Source: Planctomycetota bacterium
GTDB lineage: Bacteria > Planctomycetota > MHYJ01 > JACQXL01
Direction: 5' to 3'
Length of the DNA stretch: 52,597 nucleotides
Assembly: GCA_040753835.1 (NCBI GenBank)
Contig: JBFMDM010000003.1
Coordinates: 1 to 52,597, forward strand
Positions 6,319 to 52,380 of the stretch are shown here, one piece after another (position 1 is the stretch's first letter; every line of letters starts with the position of its first letter). A model generated the notes under the pieces. The model saw only the letters and a list, made by a program, of their open reading frames with translations, did not search any database and was not told where the DNA came from. The position numbers and the translations under genes are program-made.

Positions 6319-7044
6319 ATGCGCTATGTAATATTCGGTGATATCCACGGCAACCTGGAGGCGCTTGAGGCCGTGCTGGAAAAGATGGCCAACGAGAAGC
6401 CGGATAAATACATCTGTATGGGCGACCTGGTCGGCTACTGCGCTAATCCCAACGAGTGCATTGAAAAGGCCCGCGCGCTCAATCCCGTCTTTATAGCCGG
6501 CAACCACGACTACGCCGCGGCCGGACTGCTCAACGTGGATTTCTTCAACACCTACGCCTTCCGGGCCATAGAATGGACCAAACAGCAGTTGACGCCGGAG
6601 AACAAGGAATTCCTCAGGAATATGAAACTGGTCCAGCGCATCAACAACCTCACCGTGGTCCACGCCACGCCCTACAACCCGGAGATGTTTGAGTATATGG
6701 AGAACAACTACGACGTCCAGTTGGCCCTGACCTCGCTCAGTACGCCGGTCTGCTTTATCGGGCATTCGCATATTCCCATCTCATTCACGATTAACCGGGG
6801 TACAATATCATTCTCTACCGAGCCCTATACAACCATAAAGGGCAACAACAAGGTGATAGTCAATGTGGGCAGTGTGGGCCAGCCGCGGGACGAGAACCCC
6901 GAGGCCGCCTATGCGGTCTATGATACGGACGAAGCCGTGGTCTGGATTAAGCGGGTGGAATACAATATCCAGAAAACCTCCGAGAAGATAGTCAAGGCCA
7001 AACTGCCCGAAATCCTGGCTGAACGAATTAAATACGGCAGATAA
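6319..7044 (+). CDS. calcineurin-like metallophosphoesterase
   Basis: DIHGN, GDLVGY, GNHD, GHSH and NVGSVGQPRD motifs. Confidence 0.92.
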   Translation: MRYVIFGDIHGNLEALEAVLEKMANEKPDKYICMGDLVGYCANPNECIEKARALNPVFIAGNHDYAAAGLLNVDFFNTYAFRAIEWTKQQLTPENKEFLRNMKLVQRINNLTVVHATPYNPEMFEYMENNYDVQLALTSLSTPVCFIGHSHIPISFTINRGTISFSTEPYTTIKGNNKVIVNVGSVGQPRDENPEAAYAVYDTDEAVVWIKRVEYNIQKTSEKIVKAKLPEILAERIKYGR

Positions 7045-7219
7045 TATATTTCGCCACAAAGACACCCCGCCCGCAGGCGAGTCCCACCGGGACCCAGTGT
7101 GGTCTCGCCAGAGGCGACAAGACACCAAGAATGCGAAACGATTGTGGAAGCGAATACCGCAGTAACTGTAAGAGAACGTTCTTTGTGCCTTCGTGCCTTA
7201 GTGGCTATCTTTAAAATAT

Positions 7220-8098
7220 ATGAATTTAGCAGTTAAGGTTGGCCCCTTCAGGTTCAAGAACCCCATCCTTCTTGCCTCTGGTACTTATGGCTACGGCAAA
7301 TCATCAAAGACCCTGAACGTTGATTCCCGTATCAGCCAACTGGGAGGGTTTGTTACTAAGACCATCACCCTAAAACCCCGGCTGGGCAACAATCCGCCCC
7401 GCATTGTGGAGACCGCATCCGGTATCATCAACTCGGTCGGGCTGGAAAATCCGGGTATGGAGAAATTCTGTCAGGACTACCTGCCTGAAATGGGACGGAT
7501 AAAGACGACCAGGATTATCAGCATCGGCGGCGCGTCCGCAGACGAAATTATCCGGGCCATCCGGGTGTTCCAGAAACACCAATACCGCGTCTTTGACGGC
7601 ATAGAACTCAACATCTCCTGCCCGAATGTGGAAAGGGGTGGACGATGCATTGCTCAATCGCCTCAGGATGTCCGAAAGACCGTGCACCAGGTCTTGAAGG
7701 TGTCGCGCCTGCCTGTCATTGTCAAACTCTCGCCCAATGTCACGGACATCGTGGAGATAGCCCAATCGGCCCTGAAGTCCGGCGCTAAAGTCCTGTCGCT
7801 CATCAACACGGTTGCGGCCCTGGCTGTCAATTACCGTACCGGCAAGCCCATCCTGGGCGCAACTACGGGCGGCCTGTCCGGCCCGTGCATCAAACCCATT
7901 GCCTTAAAGATGGTTCACGATGTGGCCAGCAAGACCAAAGCCGAGGTCATCGGCATCGGCGGCATAATGAACGCCCGTGATGTGCTGGAATTCCTGTCTG
8001 TGGGCGCCAAGGCAGTCCAGGTCGGCACGTTGAACCTCGTTGACCCCTTTGCAGTGTTTAAGATACCGGCTCAGTTAAAGAAAATATCTCGCGGGTAA
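7220..8098 (+). CDS. pyrD: dihydroorotate dehydrogenase, family 1 catalytic subunit
   Basis: NPILLASGT, TKTIT, NSVGLENPG, ELNISCPN, KLSPN, GGLSGP and IGIGGI motifs. Confidence 0.95.
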   Translation: MNLAVKVGPFRFKNPILLASGTYGYGKSSKTLNVDSRISQLGGFVTKTITLKPRLGNNPPRIVETASGIINSVGLENPGMEKFCQDYLPEMGRIKTTRIISIGGASADEIIRAIRVFQKHQYRVFDGIELNISCPNVERGGRCIAQSPQDVRKTVHQVLKVSRLPVIVKLSPNVTDIVEIAQSALKSGAKVLSLINTVAALAVNYRTGKPILGATTGGLSGPCIKPIALKMVHDVASKTKAEVIGIGGIMNARDVLEFLSVGAKAVQVGTLNLVDPFAVFKIPAQLKKISRG

Positions 8099-8164
8099 CC
8101 ACAGACCTATCCCGCCTACCCGCTGCAAGCAGGTTGTATGACGGGATTATACGAATTGATATAA

Positions 8165-9247
8165 ATGTCTAAAAAATCCCTGTTACAATTAGGATTATTT
8201 ACGACGCTTATAATTATGGTCCCTTATCATGCCTATTCCAATACGGGCACGGTAGTAATGTGGGCCGGAATAGCCCATCTGTTTATCGGGAATGCTGTTA
8301 TCGGACTAATTGAAGGCCTGATTATTGGTATTGTCTTTAAAACCAGCAGATTGTTGACTGTTCCGGTTATGATTGCCGCCAACTATATTTCAATGTGGGT
8401 CGGAACTTACCTTTTTGGCAAGATGTCTGATAAATTCCAGCATATTGTCACAATATACAACGCCGCCTTTATTTTAGCGGCATTGATTATTGTATCATTT
8501 CTGTTCACTTTTATCCTGGAATGGCCATTCTGCCTATTCTTATTCCGTAAGCAGGAGAAGAAGATTAAACGTTCCTTATTAGCCAATCTTATCACACAGT
8601 CAATATCTTATGTCCTGCTGATTGCGTTTTATGCCCTGCCCAGCGGCGCCAGTTTGATTACCGATGTAAAAATCGACAAAACTTTATCATTTGCCACAAC
8701 GCAAAAGATGTGGATTTATTATATCTCCACGGATAACGGCGACATATACCGGATTAGGCAAAACGGCGCATCAAATGAAAAGATATTGGATGCCAATATC
8801 ACTGATAAGTTTGATGGTCTTTTCTTACGTCCGTCAAACGACACGCCTTACAGCAATTTATGCGTAACGGAAGGAAGGGGTGATAGAATTTTAATCCCAC
8901 ATTTTACGGCAGAGTCGATGATTCCATATTATCCGGAAAAAGACGAACAGCCATCTTGGTTTAAACCCATTGATTTGAGACCGGTGGACCAGCAGGACTG
9001 GGATGTCTCGGTCGGATTCTGGGCTATTGAAGGACTGCGCGCTAAAAATAAGGTCAATGGGAAAAAGTTCCGGTTGGCTATGGAAACACCTTTTGTTAGC
9101 ATGTCTATAAGAAATATAACATTGCTGCCAAGTAACCAAGCGGTTTTTCAGATTAATGATAATCAGATTGCCTTATTAGATTTGAACAGCAGAAAACTGG
9201 GATTAATTATCACCGGTCGCGGTCCTTTGGTGATTATGGAAAAGTAG
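8165..9247 (+). CDS. hypothetical membrane protein (about 5 TM helices plus a soluble C-terminal domain)
   Basis: 360-aa ORF with hydrophobic N-half; visibly AT-richer than its neighbours; family not recognised. Confidence 0.7.
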   Translation: MSKKSLLQLGLFTTLIIMVPYHAYSNTGTVVMWAGIAHLFIGNAVIGLIEGLIIGIVFKTSRLLTVPVMIAANYISMWVGTYLFGKMSDKFQHIVTIYNAAFILAALIIVSFLFTFILEWPFCLFLFRKQEKKIKRSLLANLITQSISYVLLIAFYALPSGASLITDVKIDKTLSFATTQKMWIYYISTDNGDIYRIRQNGASNEKILDANITDKFDGLFLRPSNDTPYSNLCVTEGRGDRILIPHFTAESMIPYYPEKDEQPSWFKPIDLRPVDQQDWDVSVGFWAIEGLRAKNKVNGKKFRLAMETPFVSMSIRNITLLPSNQAVFQINDNQIALLDLNSRKLGLIITGRGPLVIMEK

Positions 9248-9356
9248 ATTTCTTGGGAGTCCTGGAGTAACATGCTTATTATTTGTCCTAAAACTGGTCA
9301 TTTTCCCCCAACCCCTTTATTCCCGTTGGTTACGTCAAAATAGCGCCTGAATATAT

Positions 9357-9374
9357 ATGTTGGACGTCCAACAT
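9357..9374. promoter_or_regulatory. parS-like 18-bp perfect palindrome, copy 1
   Basis: ATGTTGGACGTCCAACAT; canonical parS is TGTTTCACGTGAAACA; lies downstream of parB. Confidence 0.65.
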
Positions 9375-9424
9375 TTTGACCATGGGTATAGGCAAACCTA
9401 TGTGTATATCATATCCAACGGATG

Positions 9425-9765
9425 TGTGATACAAGCCCAGCGGGCCTGTGATACAAGCCCAGCGGGTCTGTGATACAAGCCCAGCGGGCCTGTGATACAA
9501 GCCCAGCGGGTCTGTGATACAAGCCCAGCGGGCCTGTGATACAAGCCCAACGGGCCTGTGATATAAGCCCAGCGGGCCTGTGATACAAGCCCAGCGGTCC
9601 TGTGATATAAGCCCAACGGGTCTGTGATACAAGCCCAACGGGTCTGTGATACAAGCCCAGCGGTCCTGTGATACAAGCCCAGTGGGCCTGTGATATAAGC
9701 CCATCGGGTCTGTGATACAAACCCAGCGGGTCTGTGATACAAGCCCAGCGGTGGTGTGATACAAG
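9425..9765. repeat. 22-bp tandem repeat array (15 full units plus a partial one)
   Basis: Unit TGTGATAYAAGCCCAGCGGGYC at 9425, 9447 ... 9733, partial unit at 9755; an eroded unit at 9403-9424. Confidence 0.97.
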
Positions 9766-9770
9766 GGTAT

Positions 9771-9813
9771 GGGAGGTGTGGGCAAGAGAGGGGGGTAGTC
9801 CCCCACACCTCCC
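9771..9813. other. 13-bp GC-rich stem-loop between the array and the parB stop
   Basis: GGGAGGTGTGGGG...CCCCACACCTCCC; no U-tract, so a terminator role is uncertain. Confidence 0.5.
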
Positions 9814-9854
9814 TGTATATACGCCCTCAGTTGATTTTTCGCCCTTCTTGGCAG

Positions 9855-10742
9855 TTAGGGTTGATGTTGGACGTCCAACATTTTGAGGACATTCTGGTAT
9901 TGCTCGTCGCTGTAAAAACTTATGTAAATCCCGCCTGACCTGAGTTTATCCTGTAACTTAAAGAGATTGACCCGCACCTCGGCGCCAAACTTTTGCCTGA
10001 GCCGCTGTTCCAATTCCCGGATATTTTTATCGTTGGTGGCATTACAATCCTTAAATTGCTGGACGAACCTGCCGACTCCGGTGCTGATGCCTCTCGGATG
10101 CATATAGGCGTCAACTAATACCCGCAGGACCCGGACCGAAAGGTCTTCGTTTCTTGCCCTTTTCCAGAGCATCAGTCGCCGGGTGGAATCCGGCACGGCC
10201 AAAATAGCCATCGCATGGCTGACCGAGAATTTCTGTTTCTTGATGTCTTCCTGGATTTCCTGGGGAAGCCCAAGAAGACGGATGAAATTGCTGATAGTGG
10301 CCCGGTCTGTTCCAACCCTTTTAGCAACCTCTTCCTGGCTCAAGCGGCACATCTTGACTAATTGCCGGTATGCTTCGGCCCGTTCTATGGGATTGAGGTC
10401 CTTGCGGTGGGTGTTTTCCACCAGGGCGCATTCCATCATCCGCTGGTCGTTTGCCTCGGTGATAATAGCCGGAATGGTCGGCAGTTTGAGCGCCTCACAG
10501 GACCTGAACCTGCGCTCACCCATCATAATTTCATAAATATCCGGCCGTTTAGGGTCACGTCTTACAACGATGGGCTGTAACACCCCGTGCGTACTGATGG
10601 AGTCAATCAATTCCTGGAGTGACTCTTTCTCTATGGTCTTACGGGGCTGGAAGCGGTTGGGCACAATTTTCTCCAGCGGTATCTGCACGACCTCGCCGCT
10701 CACCTTGTCGTGGCTCGGATTATTATCAGAATCTTTCTTCAT
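9855..10742 (-). CDS. parB: ParB/Spo0J-family CTPase DNA-binding protein (no adjacent parA)
   Basis: PNRFQPRK, GVLQPIVVR, GERRFR (GxxR CTPase motif), ENTHRKDLNPIE, HTH SQEEVAKRVGTDRATISNFIRLL, LSVR. Start taken at MKKD (10742). Confidence 0.9.
   Translation of the reverse strand: MKKDSDNNPSHDKVSGEVVQIPLEKIVPNRFQPRKTIEKESLQELIDSISTHGVLQPIVVRRDPKRPDIYEIMMGERRFRSCEALKLPTIPAIITEANDQRMMECALVENTHRKDLNPIERAEAYRQLVKMCRLSQEEVAKRVGTDRATISNFIRLLGLPQEIQEDIKKQKFSVSHAMAILAVPDSTRRLMLWKRARNEDLSVRVLRVLVDAYMHPRGISTGVGRFVQQFKDCNATNDKNIRELEQRLRQKFGAEVRVNLFKLQDKLRSGGIYISFYSDEQYQNVLKMLDVQHQP
9864..9881. promoter_or_regulatory. parS-like 18-bp perfect palindrome, copy 2, inside the last codons of parB
   Basis: Identical ATGTTGGACGTCCAACAT; both copies continue with TTTGA (23 bp identity). 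Confidence 0.65.
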
Positions 10743-10814
10743 AAAATACCTTTTAACTACAGATTTCGCTATTGCGGTCTCTGCGGAGTTCACAGATGGA
10801 CACAGATTAACTTG

Positions 10815-11522
10815 TTAAAATCTTGTAGAGCACAGATATAGACGACCGGCATCTATATCATAAACCACGGTAAAACCAGAATCATCAAACGCTTCGGTGT
10901 CGTAATCATCAAAATAATAACCGTTTTTTATGGTAATTTCATACTTCGTCCCGGAATAATTATTCTGCCAATATTGGGCATATAATTTAGTTGAATACAC
11001 TTTTACACTAAAAGGCGGCCAGGTGTAACGAGGACCGTTATCCACAGATGAAATCCCCAGTCCGCGAAATTTAGGGAACGGGAGTTTTTCATCAGCCCAT
11101 ACGGTTTTGTTATTTTCTTTTGTTATAAATCTAACCGGTTTCCAGCCACGCTTTTCCATCCATGATAGAAAAACTTGTTCTGTTACCTGACAATCATATA
11201 AAAGGTTCAAACCTCCGGCTGAAGTAAAATAATTAACATCAATGGCCTCCAGAGGCATGTCGGGATAGCATTTTTTATTTGCCTCCTGCACCGTCACGTT
11301 AAATGCATAAGAAGTGGTCATCTGGCCTAACCAAGATGTAAGGCCGAACAGAATAAATGGAAAAGAACATATACTTATAATACAAGCCGTAATAATAATA
11401 GGAATTCTAATCCAATTAGACAGTTTCTTTATTTTAACGAACATAATTACAGCGGGAATGGCAACCAATAGAAGGCAAACGGCGCAGGTTAGTAGCAAAG
11501 CAATTATTATTATTCCGCTCAT
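10815..11522 (-). CDS. hypothetical membrane-anchored protein
   Basis: 235-aa ORF, two N-terminal TM helices, AT-rich. Confidence 0.65.
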   Translation of the reverse strand: MSGIIIIALLLTCAVCLLLVAIPAVIMFVKIKKLSNWIRIPIIITACIISICSFPFILFGLTSWLGQMTTSYAFNVTVQEANKKCYPDMPLEAIDVNYFTSAGGLNLLYDCQVTEQVFLSWMEKRGWKPVRFITKENNKTVWADEKLPFPKFRGLGISSVDNGPRYTWPPFSVKVYSTKLYAQYWQNNYSGTKYEITIKNGYYFDDYDTEAFDDSGFTVVYDIDAGRLYLCSTRF

Positions 11523-11587
11523 TTCTGTACCCTTCTTATAAGGTAATCTTCATCCGTGTAATCTGTGGAATCTGTGGAATCTGTGGT

Positions 11588-14575
11588 TTACTTCTCCGTT
11601 TTCAGTTTCTCCAACATCTCACTGATAACCGCCTGGGTCTTTTCGTCCGCCAATGGCAGGGCCTTTTCCAGCAACTCCACTGCCTCTCTGCGCCTGCCCT
11701 TGCCCGCATAGTAGCGCCCCAGGTTATAATACGCCCGGTAGTCCTGCGGATAGTGCTTTATTACCGTGACATTGGCTCGCTCAAACATTATCTCCTGGTT
11801 CTGCTCCCTTAAGTCCGGCATCACCCGGGCCTGTATCTTCACCGCCTCATAATAATTCCTGGCCGCATTGTCCTTGTCTGCGCCTGTGCCGTTGGGTTTG
11901 GTGGATTTCTCCAGATAGGCGTCGCCGATGTGCGAATGGGTCTCTGAGAAGTCAGGCGAGATGGCCAGGGACTTTTCGTATTGCTTGATGGCCTCATCAT
12001 ACCTGCCCATCTCGTGATAGACCTCGCCTAATTCGTTCCTGAGCGCCGGATGCTGGGACGAGAGGTTACAGGCGTTCTCGTAATACTTTATGGCCAGAGT
12101 GAAATTGGCCGTCCGTTTGTCAGGGTCTTTTGCTTCACGGCCCTGGACCCGGTAGAACCGGCCCATATTGGCCTGACGGGTCGGGTTCATTGAGTCGTAT
12201 TCTATGGACTTGACCAGGTAATCCAGGCATTTGTCATACCAGCCCCTTTTCTTCTGCGGGTCTTTCTCCGCATAGTATTTTTCCAGGCACATCCGGGCCG
12301 AGGCGCCGTAGTAATTTCCCTTGTCCGGCGAGAGCGCGGTGGCCTGCTCGTAATATCTCAACGCTATCTCCCACTGCTTTTCCTTTTCCTGGCCTGTGCC
12401 TATTTTGTATATGATGTCGCCCTTGATGGGATTCAGGTCGGTCAGGATGATGAGGAATACAACAGCGACCGTTATCAGGATTGAAGAAAAGACCTGAAAA
12501 GGCGTTGCAGGATTAGGGATTTCGCCGCCCAACTTCGTTGGGCGAGCCTCGCCCCTTTGGGGCGGGGATTCTCGAGTCAAAGCCCAGGCCAGGACGAGAA
12601 CGTTGATAAAGAGCCAGACAAAGAAAATCGTGATGGGTATGGTCGGAATATATAATGGCGGCAGGAACGAGGTCAGGATAATAAAGAATATTCCCGTAAT
12701 ACCGGCTGAAAGCGCCGATGCCAGTATGAACTTTTTAGCCAGCAAATAGAACAGAACTGCCGAAGATAGCCAGGCAAGCGCCACCATCATCATTGCGCGC
12801 ATCACCTTTTCCATATTGTCCGCAGAAACCTGGGTGTAGATGAAGTCAAAGGCCATCGTGCTGAGGATGAGAATAACTATTAGCGCCCAGCACATAGTAG
12901 AAAATGGTTGAGATGGCTGTTTAGAAACTGCATTTTCTTTATTTACCGCAAAGAAACCCTTTACTTGCGGAGCTATGTGCTGGGTAAATATCGCTATGAA
13001 TATAGACAGATAGATATAGAAATAGGTGCGCGAGGCAGTCAGGTCAATTCCAAACTGCACCTCCACAAAATGGCCGATAAAGGCGGAGAGGAGGGCGATG
13101 AGGAGGAGCGTGGAAGAATCGTGAAGCGTAGAGCGTGGAGCGTCGTCCCGTTCCGGCAGGATAACGCATAACGCAGGACACACAGCGCACAGCAACAGAT
13201 ACAACCCCGCGCCTGTCACCATTCCTATCGGCACGCCGACCGCGATGAAGATGGTCTTGCCCAGGGCTATGGGAATAAGCAGTCCGGCCAGGCCAAAGAG
13301 CAATAACAATCCGATAAGAACGGCCTTGCTCCGGACCAGCCCCAGGGCATTGAATCCGTAGAAGACAATCGCGCCGAACAGCGCCAGATACAGCAGAGCG
13401 CCGATTAGCCCGTTGGTGATAACCGTGTCAAAGAACTCGTTGTGCGAGCGGTCCGGAAAGGTAATCTTGTTCTCGCTGGTAATCAGTTCAGCCGGGCAGT
13501 ATTTGTGATAAGGCACGAACATCGCCTCAGGACCGTAGCCGACCACTGCCCGGTAGGAATCGGATTGGACCATCTTGACCACGCCTTCCCAAATCAGAAG
13601 CCGGACCTGAGCCGCGCCTTCACGCGCTTCCAGCATCTGACCCAGACGCCCCATACTCGTCTTCAGGCCCTGGAACGGCGTATTAGGCAAGGCCAACAGC
13701 AGGAAGAATCCCAGCACCAGCGCCGCCGCTATGTAACTGCCTAACGACAGGTAGCGCCTGCCAAAGACCAGTCCGGACAGGACCACGAAGAAGAACATCG
13801 CGGTAATAAGCCCGAGAAGCGGGCCGCGGCTCTCGGTCAGGACCAGGCACAGAACCTGGGCCAGTAATATAATAATATAAAAAATGGCTTTGGGAGCAGC
13901 AAGACCGGATTCTTTTACCGAACGGATTATCAGGTAAATTGTGAGCGGGATGACCATTATCAGATACGAGCCCAGGAAAATCGGATTGCCCATAGTGGAT
14001 GCAATACGGTCTGAAAAGTCCCAGTTAAACACTTCTAACTTGAGTTTCTGGGCAAAGCCATAGAGTATCACCGGAATGGAGGTAAGAATAATGGTTACCA
14101 GAATTCGCTCTACCCGCCCGTACGACCGCACGGTCGGGCGGGTCTGATTCCGCTCTCTTAAAGTCAGCGCGGTTATGGCGAAGATGACGAAGTAGCCCAT
14201 CAGCGAATAGGCGCCCTGGCCCCGGGCATAATTGCCCCACCAACTGCTGGGCGGCAGGACTGATAGAAACGTGGAGACGAGGTAACTCAGGCCCAACAGC
14301 AACGTGATGGCAAACAGGGGTTGCTTGAGCAGTGATTTTACTCCCCGCCCCGCATTGGCGGGGCGAGGCTCGCCCCCTTCGGGGGCGGCTGATAGCGAGA
14401 CCCTCTTTACCAAGAAAGCGGCCAGCATCACCAGGGCAATGGAGCGCACGACCGTGCTCTTGTCCGGCTCAAAGGAAACCGAGGAGTGGAAGTTCATAAA
14501 CAGCGGCGCAATCACCAGCGCGGCCAGCCAGCACGCCTCTATAACCTTGTCGCAGAATATGGTTATCTTATTCAT
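11588..14575 (-). CDS. O-antigen ligase-like polytopic membrane protein with C-terminal TPR repeats
   Basis: STMGNPIFLGSYL, TESRGPLLG, RLLIWEG...GYGPE, DRSHNEFFD (Wzy_C/WaaL-type motifs); several TPR units, e.g. LGEVYHEMGRYDEAIKQYEKSLAISP. Confidence 0.85.
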   Translation of the reverse strand: MNKITIFCDKVIEACWLAALVIAPLFMNFHSSVSFEPDKSTVVRSIALVMLAAFLVKRVSLSAAPEGGEPRPANAGRGVKSLLKQPLFAITLLLGLSYLVSTFLSVLPPSSWWGNYARGQGAYSLMGYFVIFAITALTLRERNQTRPTVRSYGRVERILVTIILTSIPVILYGFAQKLKLEVFNWDFSDRIASTMGNPIFLGSYLIMVIPLTIYLIIRSVKESGLAAPKAIFYIIILLAQVLCLVLTESRGPLLGLITAMFFFVVLSGLVFGRRYLSLGSYIAAALVLGFFLLLALPNTPFQGLKTSMGRLGQMLEAREGAAQVRLLIWEGVVKMVQSDSYRAVVGYGPEAMFVPYHKYCPAELITSENKITFPDRSHNEFFDTVITNGLIGALLYLALFGAIVFYGFNALGLVRSKAVLIGLLLLFGLAGLLIPIALGKTIFIAVGVPIGMVTGAGLYLLLCAVCPALCVILPERDDAPRSTLHDSSTLLLIALLSAFIGHFVEVQFGIDLTASRTYFYIYLSIFIAIFTQHIAPQVKGFFAVNKENAVSKQPSQPFSTMCWALIVILILSTMAFDFIYTQVSADNMEKVMRAMMMVALAWLSSAVLFYLLAKKFILASALSAGITGIFFIILTSFLPPLYIPTIPITIFFVWLFINVLVLAWALTRESPPQRGEARPTKLGGEIPNPATPFQVFSSILITVAVVFLIILTDLNPIKGDIIYKIGTGQEKEKQWEIALRYYEQATALSPDKGNYYGASARMCLEKYYAEKDPQKKRGWYDKCLDYLVKSIEYDSMNPTRQANMGRFYRVQGREAKDPDKRTANFTLAIKYYENACNLSSQHPALRNELGEVYHEMGRYDEAIKQYEKSLAISPDFSETHSHIGDAYLEKSTKPNGTGADKDNAARNYYEAVKIQARVMPDLREQNQEIMFERANVTVIKHYPQDYRAYYNLGRYYAGKGRRREAVELLEKALPLADEKTQAVISEMLEKLKTEK

Positions 14576-52152: not shown

Positions 52153-52380
52153 GGGTATGGCTCGTGGCTGTAGGGGGTATGGTTACCAGCCCCAAGGGGT
52201 ATGGGTCGTAGCACTCAGGGGTATGACTACCAGCCCTGACCTCTATGGCTACTGCTCATAAGGGGTATGGTTCCTATTGGTAACGGGTATGGTTCATAGC
52301 ACTAATGGGTATGGGTCTTGACACTGAGGGGTATGGTTAGTAGCCCTAAGGGGTAAGACCTCTGACCGTGAGGGGTATGG
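52153..52380. repeat. degenerate 22-bp-period array with GGGTATGG core (11 cores)
   Basis: Cores at 52153, 52175, 52197, 52219, 52241, 52263, 52285, 52307, 52329, 52351 and 52373; those at 52219, 52241 and 52351 are degenerate; spacing is exactly 22 bp. Confidence 0.9.

What the first reader, a model, noticed from the sequence alone, without database searches (positions are those of the whole stretch)
9357..10742. Orphan ParB with an altered specificity motif next to two copies of a variant parS palindrome: candidate new ParB-site pair
Seen: the perfect palindrome ATGTTGGACGTCCAACAT occurs at 9357-9374 and again at 9864-9881, inside the last codons of parB (encoding MLDVQH). It matches canonical parS (TGTTTCACGTGAAACA) except that TC becomes GG symmetrically in each half-site. 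The ParB keeps its CTPase motifs and HTH Arg, but the highly conserved GHAR after the HTH reads SHAM. There is no adjacent parA and no N-terminal LGRGL ParA-binding peptide. Established, from my recollection of the Caulobacter ParB-parS structure and needing verification: the Gly and Arg of GHAR read central bases of the half-site, including the C:G pair that is changed here. Inference: protein and site co-diverged into an orthogonal ParB system, Noc-like or autoregulatory, that loads on its own 3' end.
Basis: partly seen in the sequence, partly recalled or inferred. Interest (0 to 1): 0.82.

Follow-up and report, generated by a model that had tools for sequence, protein, structure and literature searches.

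The report
Orphan ParB with private parS sites
A spare copy of the bacterial chromosome-partition protein ParB sits beside its own altered docking sites and a block of 22-base repeats, and relatives show that protein and site changed together, giving natural non-cross-reacting ParB/site pairs.

Summary
ATGTTGGACGTCCAACAT is exact at 9357-9374 and 9864-9881, and the second copy lies in the last codons of a 295-aa ParB with no parA beside it and no LGRGL peptide.

The ParB belongs to a well-supported clade found only in a few Planctomycetota families. It is sister to those organisms' ParA-linked ParBs.

In 13 of 15 clade loci with downstream DNA, parB is followed by G-box, 22-bp array and a TGTnnnACGTnnnACA palindrome. 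None of 153 non-clade ParB loci has such an array.

The residue at Caulobacter position N178 (N/H/D) matches base 4 of the half-site (T/G/C) in 14 of 14 loci. This needs at least 5 changes on the tree, and three loci were predicted blind. Synonymous codons of an in-gene site follow the same classes. R204 is never Arg in the clade.

The picture is wider, though. Relatives carry parB-less modules that mix palindrome classes, often beside HTH_17 genes. 22-bp arrays are a lineage-wide feature tied to that HTH_17 family.

What the module does in the cell is inferred, not shown.

The parts
9855..10742 (-). parB paralogue, 295 aa: CTPase N-domain, HTH, linker, C-terminal dimer domain. No LGRGL peptide. 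Residues at Caulobacter positions 173/178/179/184/201/204 = R/N/F/G/S/M.
   Evidence: AF2 model pLDDT 85. Tree placement.
9864..9881 (.). Proximal palindrome ATGTTGGACGTCCAACAT (core TGTTGGACGTCCAACA), inside the last codons of parB (MLDVQH).
9771..9813 (.). G-box GGGAGGTGTGGG and its perfect inverted partner CCCACACCTCCC, 19 nt apart. The partner is the first, ancestral-type repeat core. The G-box is conserved in front of the array in the other clade loci.
   Evidence: The G-box regex occurs in G000 only at C3, C89 and C205.
9425..9765 (.). Tandem array, 22 bp x 15.5, 90% matches. Unit TGTGATACAAGCCCAGCGGGCC on the + strand. Homologous to the array of the G001:C14 hub.
9375..9424 (.). Spacer between the array and the distal palindrome. 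This is the position of the terminal box CTGCCAATAGGGTTAG in other loci; here it has diverged.
9357..9374 (.). Distal palindrome, identical to the proximal one.
8104..11571 (.). Variable 3.5-kb slot that holds the module plus two membrane-protein ORFs (8165-9247 +, 10815-11522 -). In same-genus G001 the flanks are collinear, but a different 9.6-kb segment lies between them.

Best explanation
The gene encodes a ParA-independent paralogue of chromosomal ParB. It arose within one Planctomycetota lineage and recognises its own variant of parS, TGTTGGACGTCCAACA.

Shown here:
- The fold and the CTP-binding motifs are intact.
- The site is a perfect palindrome present three times in the genome, twice flanking a 22-bp array just 3' of the gene.
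- Among relatives, the DNA-contacting residues at positions 178 and 204 change together with bases 4-6 of the half-site.

Inferred:
- A ParB dimer docks on the palindromes through its HTH.
- It closes as a CTP clamp and accumulates on and around the roughly 500-bp interval between the two loading sites, and on the third site on contig C112.
- It lacks the LGRGL peptide, so it cannot stimulate ParA. The complex would therefore mark or organise a locus rather than drive ParA-based segregation.
- Divergent specificity keeps it from cross-reacting with the canonical ParB and with co-resident paralogues.

The G-box and 22-bp array are conserved parts of the same cis element, but they do not covary with the HTH. 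Their most likely binder is a second protein. A lineage-specific HTH_17 family encoded beside most such arrays is the candidate, with other surfaces of ParB as the alternative.
For: Site.
- Exact copies, 0 of 100 shuffles with any match.
- All 6 matches to TGTnnnACGTnnnACA in G000 are perfect palindromes and lie at ParB-type arrays.
- Five relatives hold 13, 6, 2, 7 and 3 forward matches, against 0, 3, 0, 0 and 1 for the reversed control pattern.

Protein.
- ParB domains.
- GERR, ENxxR and QPR are invariant in 30 clade proteins.
- AF2 gives a standard ParB with a disordered tail over the palindrome codons.

Clade.
- 16 rows with 100/100 support, sister to the ParA-linked ParBs of the same family. 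The first branch inside the clade is still ParA-linked and keeps LGRGL (G007:C191).

Covariation.
- N/H/D at position 178 pairs with T/G/C at base 4 of the half-site in 14 of 14 rows.
- This needs at least 5 changes of each on the tree.
- Three new loci (L051, L053, L133) fitted the rule after it was framed.
- D-class in-gene sites read GTC..CAG in 4 of 4 loci. N-class in-gene sites read GTT..CAA in 2 of 2. These are synonymous Val and Gln codons.
- Position 204 is M/I/L/K/T in 30 of 30 clade proteins and never R.
- N178 and R204 are among six parS-contacting residues conserved in ParB and Noc (PMC7383237, passage).

Orthogonality.
- Co-resident clade ParBs differ in class in 4 of 4 genomes.

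Module.
- An array follows parB in 13 of 15 clade loci and in 0 of 153 non-clade ParB loci.

HTH_17.
- 24 of 30 loci of this family carry a 22-bp array.
- The family has the same family-level spread as the ParB clade.
Against: - No binding, CTPase or localisation data exist, and no sequencing run could be listed.
- The independent-pair test has too few pairs: 3 of 3, 3 of 3 and 1 of 1 go the same way, sign test p 0.25 to 1.
- M versus I at position 204 does not track G versus T at base 5 strictly. L133 has M with TGAC.
- Near-complete relatives carry site classes with no matching ParB in the assembly. G001 (96% complete) has one clade ParB but at least 5 classes, including this exact palindrome. 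G004 (97% complete) has one clade ParB plus H- and N-type sites. Sites therefore persist or act without a resident cognate ParB, or some ParBs are unassembled.
- The module lies in a variable slot that is absent from same-genus G001.
- Paralogues in G000 are broken: C89 has an in-frame TAG and C126 is truncated.
- G007:C255 has parB and a palindrome but no array.
- No HTH_17 gene lies next to the window's array.
Confidence: 0.72

Rival explanations
1. The module is a decaying remnant of a plasmid-like or otherwise mobile partition cassette. It would be parB plus centromere that has lost parA, with no present role for the host.
For: - It lies in a variable slot replaced by other DNA in same-genus G001.
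- There are several paralogues per genome, some broken: C89 has a TAG, C126 and G014:C29 are truncated.
- parB-less modules exist.
- 22-bp direct repeats resemble plasmid iterons or centromeres (recalled).
- A survey reports that orphan ParBs are often on mobile elements (PMC12704722, abstract and passages).
Against: - The ORF is intact with invariant CTP motifs.
- All three copies of the palindrome are perfect.
- Module anatomy is conserved across genera at 53-73% protein identity.
- No integrase, transposase or rep gene lies beside the clade loci.
- No clade member was found among 43 viral-contig relatives; the best was 39% identical.
- The clade stems from the lineage's own chromosomal ParB.
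Confidence: 0.12
2. It is a KorB- or VirB-like transcription regulator. ParB would load at the palindromes and silence or control neighbouring genes, including its own through the site in its 3' codons.
For: - There is a site inside or at the end of its own gene in many members.
- Hub palindromes lie upstream of HTH_17 genes.
- KorB is a distant PDB hit (8qa8, E 2e-11).
Against: - In the window the element lies between convergent genes, not at a promoter.
- The promoter scan found nothing above shuffles.
- There are only three sites in the genome.
- No KorA-like partner was seen.
Confidence: 0.1
3. The palindromes are not ParB sites. They would be hairpin terminators or end-pieces of the 22-bp array element, read by another protein such as the HTH_17 family, and parB is merely a frequent neighbour.
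For: - The palindromes sit at array ends also where no parB is present, in mixed classes.
- A/T runs flank them (AAAATGT...ACATTTT).
Against: - This does not explain the 14 of 14 match with a ParB DNA-contact residue.
- It does not explain the sites inside parB coding sequence with class-specific synonymous codons.
- It does not explain the TGT..ACGT..ACA frame shared with parS.
- The terminator scan did not call them.
- The other 82 of 86 arrays in G000 have no such palindrome.
Confidence: 0.05

Closest known systems
Noc / NBS of Bacillota (a ParB paralogue with switched site specificity)
   Same: It is an orphan ParB-derived paralogue that arose by duplication of chromosomal ParB. It keeps the CTPase fold and reads a 16-bp palindrome differing from parS at two positions per half-site.
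   Different: Noc switches at positions 173 and 201, with permissive 179 and 184, to read bases 1 and 6 in that paper's numbering (PMC7383237). Here R173 is invariant, and the changes are at 178 and 204, which are conserved in both ParB and Noc. They go with bases 3-5 of that numbering. The protein scores 207.7 bits against a Noc cut-off of 315. There are three sites in the genome; I recall that Noc has dozens. There are several classes rather than one.
Replicon-specific ParABS systems of Burkholderia cenocepacia and other multipartite genomes
   Same: Several ParB paralogues sit in one cell, each with its own parS variant, presumably kept apart to avoid cross-talk.
   Different: Those systems each have a ParA and serve separate replicons. 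I saw these papers only as entries in the reference list of PMC7022226; the details are recalled. Here the paralogues lack ParA and its docking peptide and sit in chromosomal contexts.
Plasmid centromeres built of tandem repeats (F sopC for SopB; parC for ParR; tubC for TubR)
   Same: A partition-type DNA-binding protein gene is followed by a block of tandem direct repeats.
   Different: This comparison is recalled, not tested. In sopC each repeat holds the SopB inverted repeat. Here the repeat units do not hold the ParB half-site above chance, and the palindromes lie outside the array.
Canonical chromosomal ParB/Spo0J with a parS inside its own gene
   Same: Same domain order and motifs, and a site within or at the end of the parB coding region. 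The canonical ParB of same-genus G001 also has a degenerate 22/44-bp array after its gene.
   Different: No parA, no LGRGL, R204 lost, and a different site.

Membership tests
ParB/RepB/Spo0J family (TIGR00180; Pfam ParB_N + HTH_ParB) | ParB N-terminal CTPase-fold domain scoring above the curated cut-off | tested here: met
   PF02195 104.3 bits (cut-off 26.3). TIGR00180 179.7 bits (cut-off 58.45).
ParB/RepB/Spo0J family (TIGR00180; Pfam ParB_N + HTH_ParB) | Central HTH DNA-binding domain | tested here: met
   PF17762 99.8 bits (cut-off 22.6). Aligns to solved ParB and Noc over residues 17-211.
ParB/RepB/Spo0J family (TIGR00180; Pfam ParB_N + HTH_ParB) | CTP-binding boxes (QPR, GERRxR, ENxxR) | tested here: met
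   Present in the window protein and invariant in 30 clade proteins. CTP binding itself was not tested.
Canonical chromosomal ParABS ParB | Adjacent parA | tested here: not met
   No parA among the ORFs of 7000-13500. The genome's parA-parB pair is on contig C28.
Canonical chromosomal ParABS ParB | N-terminal ParA-binding motif (L/F/I)G(K/R)G(L/F/I) | tested here: not met
   Absent from the window protein. Present in C28, G001:C29 and G007:C191. The motif definition comes from PMC12704722.
Canonical chromosomal ParABS ParB | Cognate site TGTTNCACGTGNAACA | tested here: not met
   The adjacent sites are TGTTGGACGTCCAACA. The genome has no match to the canonical pattern with 0 or 1 mismatch.
Noc (TIGR04285) | Score above the curated cut-off | tested here: not met
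   207.7 bits against a cut-off of 315.
Noc (TIGR04285) | Specificity residues Q173, K179/K184, R201, with an NBS site | tested here: not met
   The window protein has R, F, G, S at these positions. The site keeps G at base 1 and A at base 6 of the paper's numbering.
Noc (TIGR04285) | N-terminal membrane-targeting amphipathic helix | not tested
   Residues 1-13 are low-confidence coil in the AF2 model. No dedicated test was run.
KorB-type regulators | KorB family match and a KorA-type partner | tested here: inconclusive
   Only a distant PDB match to KorB (E 2e-11, N-domain only). No partner search was made.

The most novel reading that the evidence does not exclude
These FtsZ-poor Planctomycetota may run a multi-locus, two-key chromosome-marking system. 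Composite modules (G-box, 22-bp array, one to five parS-like palindromes) are dispersed around the chromosome. The arrays would be read by a radiating family of HTH_17 proteins, and the palindromes by a radiating family of ParA-independent ParB clamps with at least three mutually orthogonal specificities (TGTT, TGTG, TGTC). 'Hub' modules that mix classes would bring different ParB complexes together. If so, this would be a ParB-based genome-organising or segregation scheme unlike the single ori-proximal parS cluster of other bacteria.
Probability: 0.2. Interest if true: 0.85.

Novelty: new variant of a known kind. Interest (0 to 1): 0.7.

Why it matters
It gives a natural series of closely related ParB proteins (53-73% identical) whose sites differ by one to three bases per half-site. 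The differences map to two DNA-contact residues, 178 and 204, that were held to be conserved across ParB and Noc. That is a second route of specificity change, independent of the ParB-to-Noc route and directly testable by residue swaps.

Such pairs could also extend the set of orthogonal ParB/parS tags used for multicolour labelling of DNA loci.

The link to 22-bp arrays, to an HTH_17 family and to mixed-class hubs points to a chromosome-organising layer that I found undescribed in the two literature searches I ran. It occurs in a lineage whose cell biology is little known.

Tried and rejected
- Array units as arrays of ParB half-sites: rejected. Own half-sites match the units at 4-5 of 8 positions, which is the mode for random units. 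Exceptions: G007:C191 at 7 of 8; the window unit at 7 of 8 to the canonical TGTTTCAC but 5 of 8 to its own half-site.
- Palindromes as intrinsic terminators: the scan called none at the palindromes.
- Array as a known RNA: only sub-threshold hits to Gut-1 (33.5, 27.6 and 26.6 bits against a gathering score of 50). This is a resemblance (tandem short hairpins), not membership.
- Extra DNA-binding domain in the ParB: the AF2 model shows only the standard three domains. No fold search was run.
- Phage origin: no clade member among 43 viral-contig relatives.
- Inverted 'cap' as a general feature of all arrays: weak. 23 of 71 arrays have one, against 5 of 71 control flanks, and many units are themselves palindromic.
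- Wider sampling: the metagenome scan added only 3 clade loci and the genome scan only 1.
- Expression: no sequencing run could be listed and no RNA holder was listed.
- Array-neighbour families A and B: no Pfam or PHROG family. The Atlas gave no usable name.
- The first tree held two mis-framed rows and two wrong ORFs. It was discarded and rebuilt (which left out L020 and L038).
- Literature: no paper holds 'tandem repeats' + '22-bp' + 'Planctomycetes'. None of the 12 listed ParB/Planctomycetes/parS papers concerned this (listing only). The Helicobacter Spo0J-parS paper (PMC4450421) is not held. Figures and supplements of PMC7383237, which hold the base-contact map, could not be seen.
Full report
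**1. The observation**

The 18-mer ATGTTGGACGTCCAACAT is exact at 9357-9374 and 9864-9881. The window has no further match at up to 3 mismatches, and 0 of 100 shuffles gave any match.

The ORF 9855-10742(-) ends ...KMLDVQHQP*, so the second copy lies in its last codons. The protein has ParB_N, HTH_ParB and a weak ParB_C, and passes TIGR00180. It fails the Noc model, at 207.7 against 315 bits.

Alignment to solved ParB and Noc chains places the four Caulobacter specificity positions 173/179/184/201 at R/F/G/S. It places the conserved contact residues N178 and R204 at N and M, so 'SHAM' stands for GHAR. The LGRGL peptide and its linker are missing.

- a perfect 12-nt inverted repeat, 9771-9782/9802-9813;
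- a 22-bp x 15.5 tandem array, 9425-9765.

**2. The genome**

The window is contig C3 of a 2.49-Mb, 280-contig assembly that is 92% complete. Record titles of relatives name Planctomycetota and Candidatus Brocadiia MAGs.

The assembly has a canonical clpC-parA-parB locus on C28. That ParB starts MEKKLGRGL. It is followed by TGTTTCTCACC twice, by CGTTTCTCGTGGAACA, and then by transposase fragments.

No canonical parS with 0 or 1 mismatch exists in the assembly.

Four further ParB_N hits belong with the window protein:
- C3, intact;
- C89, with an in-frame TAG;
- C126, truncated;
- C140, which runs off its contig.

All six TGTnnnACGTnnnACA matches in the genome are perfect palindromes:
- C3, twice;
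- C89 and C205 (TGTGCTACGTAGCACA);
- C112 (TGTGCGACGTCGCACA, abutting a third copy of the window's site).

**3. A clade with a conserved module**

Proteins more than 50% identical to the window ParB form a clade of 16 rows with 100/100 support. It is sister to the ParA-linked ParBs of the same family. Its first branch (G007:C191) still has parA upstream and LGRGL.

In the genomes searched, the clade occurs in families f1 and f4 of one order and not in f2, f3 or f5.

Where downstream DNA is available, 13 of 15 clade loci show the same order:
1. parB stop;
2. G-box (CAGGGGGAGGTGTAGGGG, the inverse of the repeat core);
3. 8 to 19 units of 22 bp, with core CCTACACCyC;
4. a terminal box (CTGCCAATAGGGTTAG in many loci);
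5. a palindrome.

The exceptions are G007:C255, which has a palindrome but no array, and G014:C29, which has a truncated gene and neither feature. None of the 153 non-clade ParB loci fetched has an array of period 21-23.

The sister locus L051 (73% identity) repeats the window's layout, palindrome-array-palindrome.

**4. Protein and site covary**

The residue aligned with Caulobacter N178 goes with the fourth base of the half-site:

| Residue at 178 | Half-site start | Loci |
|---|---|---|
| N | TGTT | window, G007:C191, canonical C28 and G001:C29 |
| H | TGTG | G001:C1, C89, G008:C76, G007:C255 |
| D | TGTC | G005:C1, G004:C7, G008:C148 |

After I had framed this rule, three new loci fitted it: L051 and L053 (N with TGTT) and L133 (D with TGTC).

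On the tree, residue and base agree in 14 of 14 rows, and each needs at least 5 changes. The independent-pair test goes the same way in 3 of 3, 3 of 3 and 1 of 1 pairs, but has too few pairs for significance (p 0.25 to 1).

An in-gene site lies in the codons VGRQT, just before GHAx. It reads GAT GTC GGA CGT CAG ACA in 4 of 4 D-class genes. In the 2 N-class genes that have the site, it keeps GTT for Val and CAA for Gln. Synonymous positions therefore follow the class.

Position 204 is never R in 30 clade proteins: M 12, I 11, L 4, K 2, T 1. Position 173 is always R. K at 204 goes with CTAC. M and I go with GGAC and TGAC, but not strictly (L133).

Jalal et al. 2020 (PMC7383237; passages read, not figures or supplements) list N178 and R204 among six parS-contacting residues conserved in both ParB and Noc. 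They also report that S at 201 is tolerated by parS binders. The clade thus varies along an axis different from the ParB-to-Noc switch.

Co-resident clade ParBs differ in class in 4 of 4 genomes: G000 N+H, G007 N+H, G008 D+H, G014 N+H.

**5. The array**

The units do not contain the locus's own half-site above chance. Their core is shared across ParB classes; the units of L051 (N class) and L133 (D class) are nearly identical. The array is therefore not read by the variable HTH surface.

The array next to parB belongs to a much larger population:
- G000 holds 86 arrays of period 21-23 bp (48, 37 and 1 for 22, 21 and 23), each with its own unit. Almost no other tandem repeats occur.
- Relatives of the family have 3.7 to 5.1 arrays per 100 kb.
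- Two other families of the order showed 1 array each, in 40 to 42 kb sampled.
- A class-level genome showed 0 in 120 kb.
- Arrays are intergenic and rare between divergent genes: 2 of 55 arrays whose flanking-gene orientation could be classified, against 224 of 1654 gene pairs genome-wide.

Only the ParB-type arrays carry the G-box and the palindromes.

**6. parB-less hubs and HTH_17 genes**

A census in five relatives found modules without parB that hold several palindrome classes side by side:
- G001:C14:153986-154423 has two palindromes, then G-box and array, then three palindromes, in three classes.
- G001:C19:22463-22625 holds three classes, including the window's exact palindrome.
- G001:C14:44531/44624 and G004:C2:103211/103244 are further examples.

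The genes facing these arrays are DNA-binding proteins, not transposases. They are Zn_ribbon_IS1595 + HTH_17 with no DDE hit, or three HTH_17 domains.

A search with one of them shows a multi-copy family in f1 (8 of 9 genomes) and f4 (2 of 2), and in none of the 4 genomes of f2, f3 and f5. This is the spread of the ParB clade. Of its 30 fetched loci, 24 carry a 22-bp array with its own unit; the count is 22 of 28 after merging two overlapping pairs. In G000, 4 of 8 HTH_17 genes lie within about 0.7 kb of an array.

The window's array is homologous to that of the G001:C14:44-kb hub, at 82-87% over units and with the same C-box. G000:C112 is the orthologue of that hub, with the same leader and the same palindrome pair.

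G001 and G004 are 96-97% complete. Each shows only one clade ParB but more site classes. 'One private ParB, one private site' is therefore too simple.

**7. Context**

G000:C3 and G001:C29 are collinear up to pyrD and again from the 995-aa gene. The 3.5 kb in between (two membrane ORFs, parB and the cis element) is replaced in G001 by 9.6 kb of other DNA.

Other clade members sit after murG or ddl at the end of the cell-wall gene cluster (G001:C1, G007:C255, G014:C51) or elsewhere. No integrase or rep gene is adjacent, and no clade member was found in viral contigs.

**8. Verdict**

The finding is real, and its core inference, co-divergence of a ParB and its site, is supported by comparative evidence.

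It is a new variant of a known kind: ParB paralogues with altered parS. Three things distinguish it:
- the residues involved;
- several coexisting classes;
- a composite cis element tied to lineage-wide 22-bp arrays and an HTH_17 family.

Binding, clamp behaviour and cellular role remain inferred.

Noticed in passing
G000 genome-wide (e.g. C5:39246-39515, C8:10872-11171, C19:9876-10219, C161:1598-2011); window 52259-52355: 86 tandem arrays of period 21-23 bp (3.5-19 copies), each with a different unit. They are almost the only tandem repeats in the genome. Density is similar in family relatives, and a sampled class-level genome had 0 in 120 kb. 21-bp units often hold a short internal palindrome.
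   Followed up: partly
L312-L341 (order-wide loci); G000:C12:18473-19336, C74:312-812, C112:4762-5628, C19:9295-9549: A lineage-specific HTH_17 family, some members with an N-terminal IS1595-type zinc ribbon and no DDE domain, is encoded next to a 22-bp array in 24 of 30 loci. Each array has its own unit. This may be a set of protein/array pairs.
   Followed up: partly
G000: C131, C142, C145, C16, C53, C86, C11, C239 (family A); C102, C106, C20, C248, C44, C49, C6, C91 (family B): Two multi-copy gene families without Pfam or PHROG hits each have an array just upstream of the start: 22 bp for family A, 21 bp for family B (8 of 8). In C6 a TTGACA-N17-TATAAT promoter-like site precedes the array, which would put the array in the 5' leader.
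   Followed up: partly
G001:C14:153986-154423, G001:C19:22463-22625, G001:C14:44531-44639, G004:C2:103211-103259, G000:C112:6370-6402: parB-less 'hub' modules hold two to five parS-like palindromes of different classes around one array. Site classes outnumber the ParB classes found in those assemblies.
   Followed up: partly
window 9446-9701 (+): Sub-threshold matches to Rfam Gut-1 (RF01706; 33.5, 27.6 and 26.6 bits, gathering score 50). The Gut-1 consensus is itself three tandem 'UGAAAU + hairpin' units, like the array unit UGUGAUACAA + GCCC-AGC-GGGC.
   Followed up: partly
G000:C28:9071-11711; G001:C29 (L050 8900-9520): Canonical parA-parB is followed by direct half-sites TGTTTCTCACC x2 and one imperfect site (CGTTTCTCGTGGAACA). 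In G001 a C-rich tract and a degenerate 22/44-bp array follow. In G000 transposase fragments follow instead. The canonical ParB here has T at position 201 and L, D at positions 171, 172.
   Followed up: partly
G000:C89:660-1541; C126:121-669; C205:1821-2290: One paralogous parB has an in-frame TAG where relatives have CAG. A second breaks off after residue 182. C205 is a second copy (90-92% identical) of the C89-type array plus palindrome.
   Followed up: partly
L040 (G001:C1), L046 (G007:C255), L048 (G014:C51): Three clade parB genes lie directly after murC-murB-ddl or murF-mraY-ftsW-murG, at the end of the cell-wall/division gene cluster.
   Followed up: no
L133 (JACQXV010000038.1): A 3.9-kb contig filed under a Candidatus Woesearchaeota MAG carries a complete Planctomycetota-type parB/array/palindrome module. 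It is probably mis-binned.
   Followed up: no
G000:C12 near 19600: A run of N lies immediately left of the 22-bp array at C12:19629-19885. It is either a scaffold gap or a withheld stretch.
   Followed up: no
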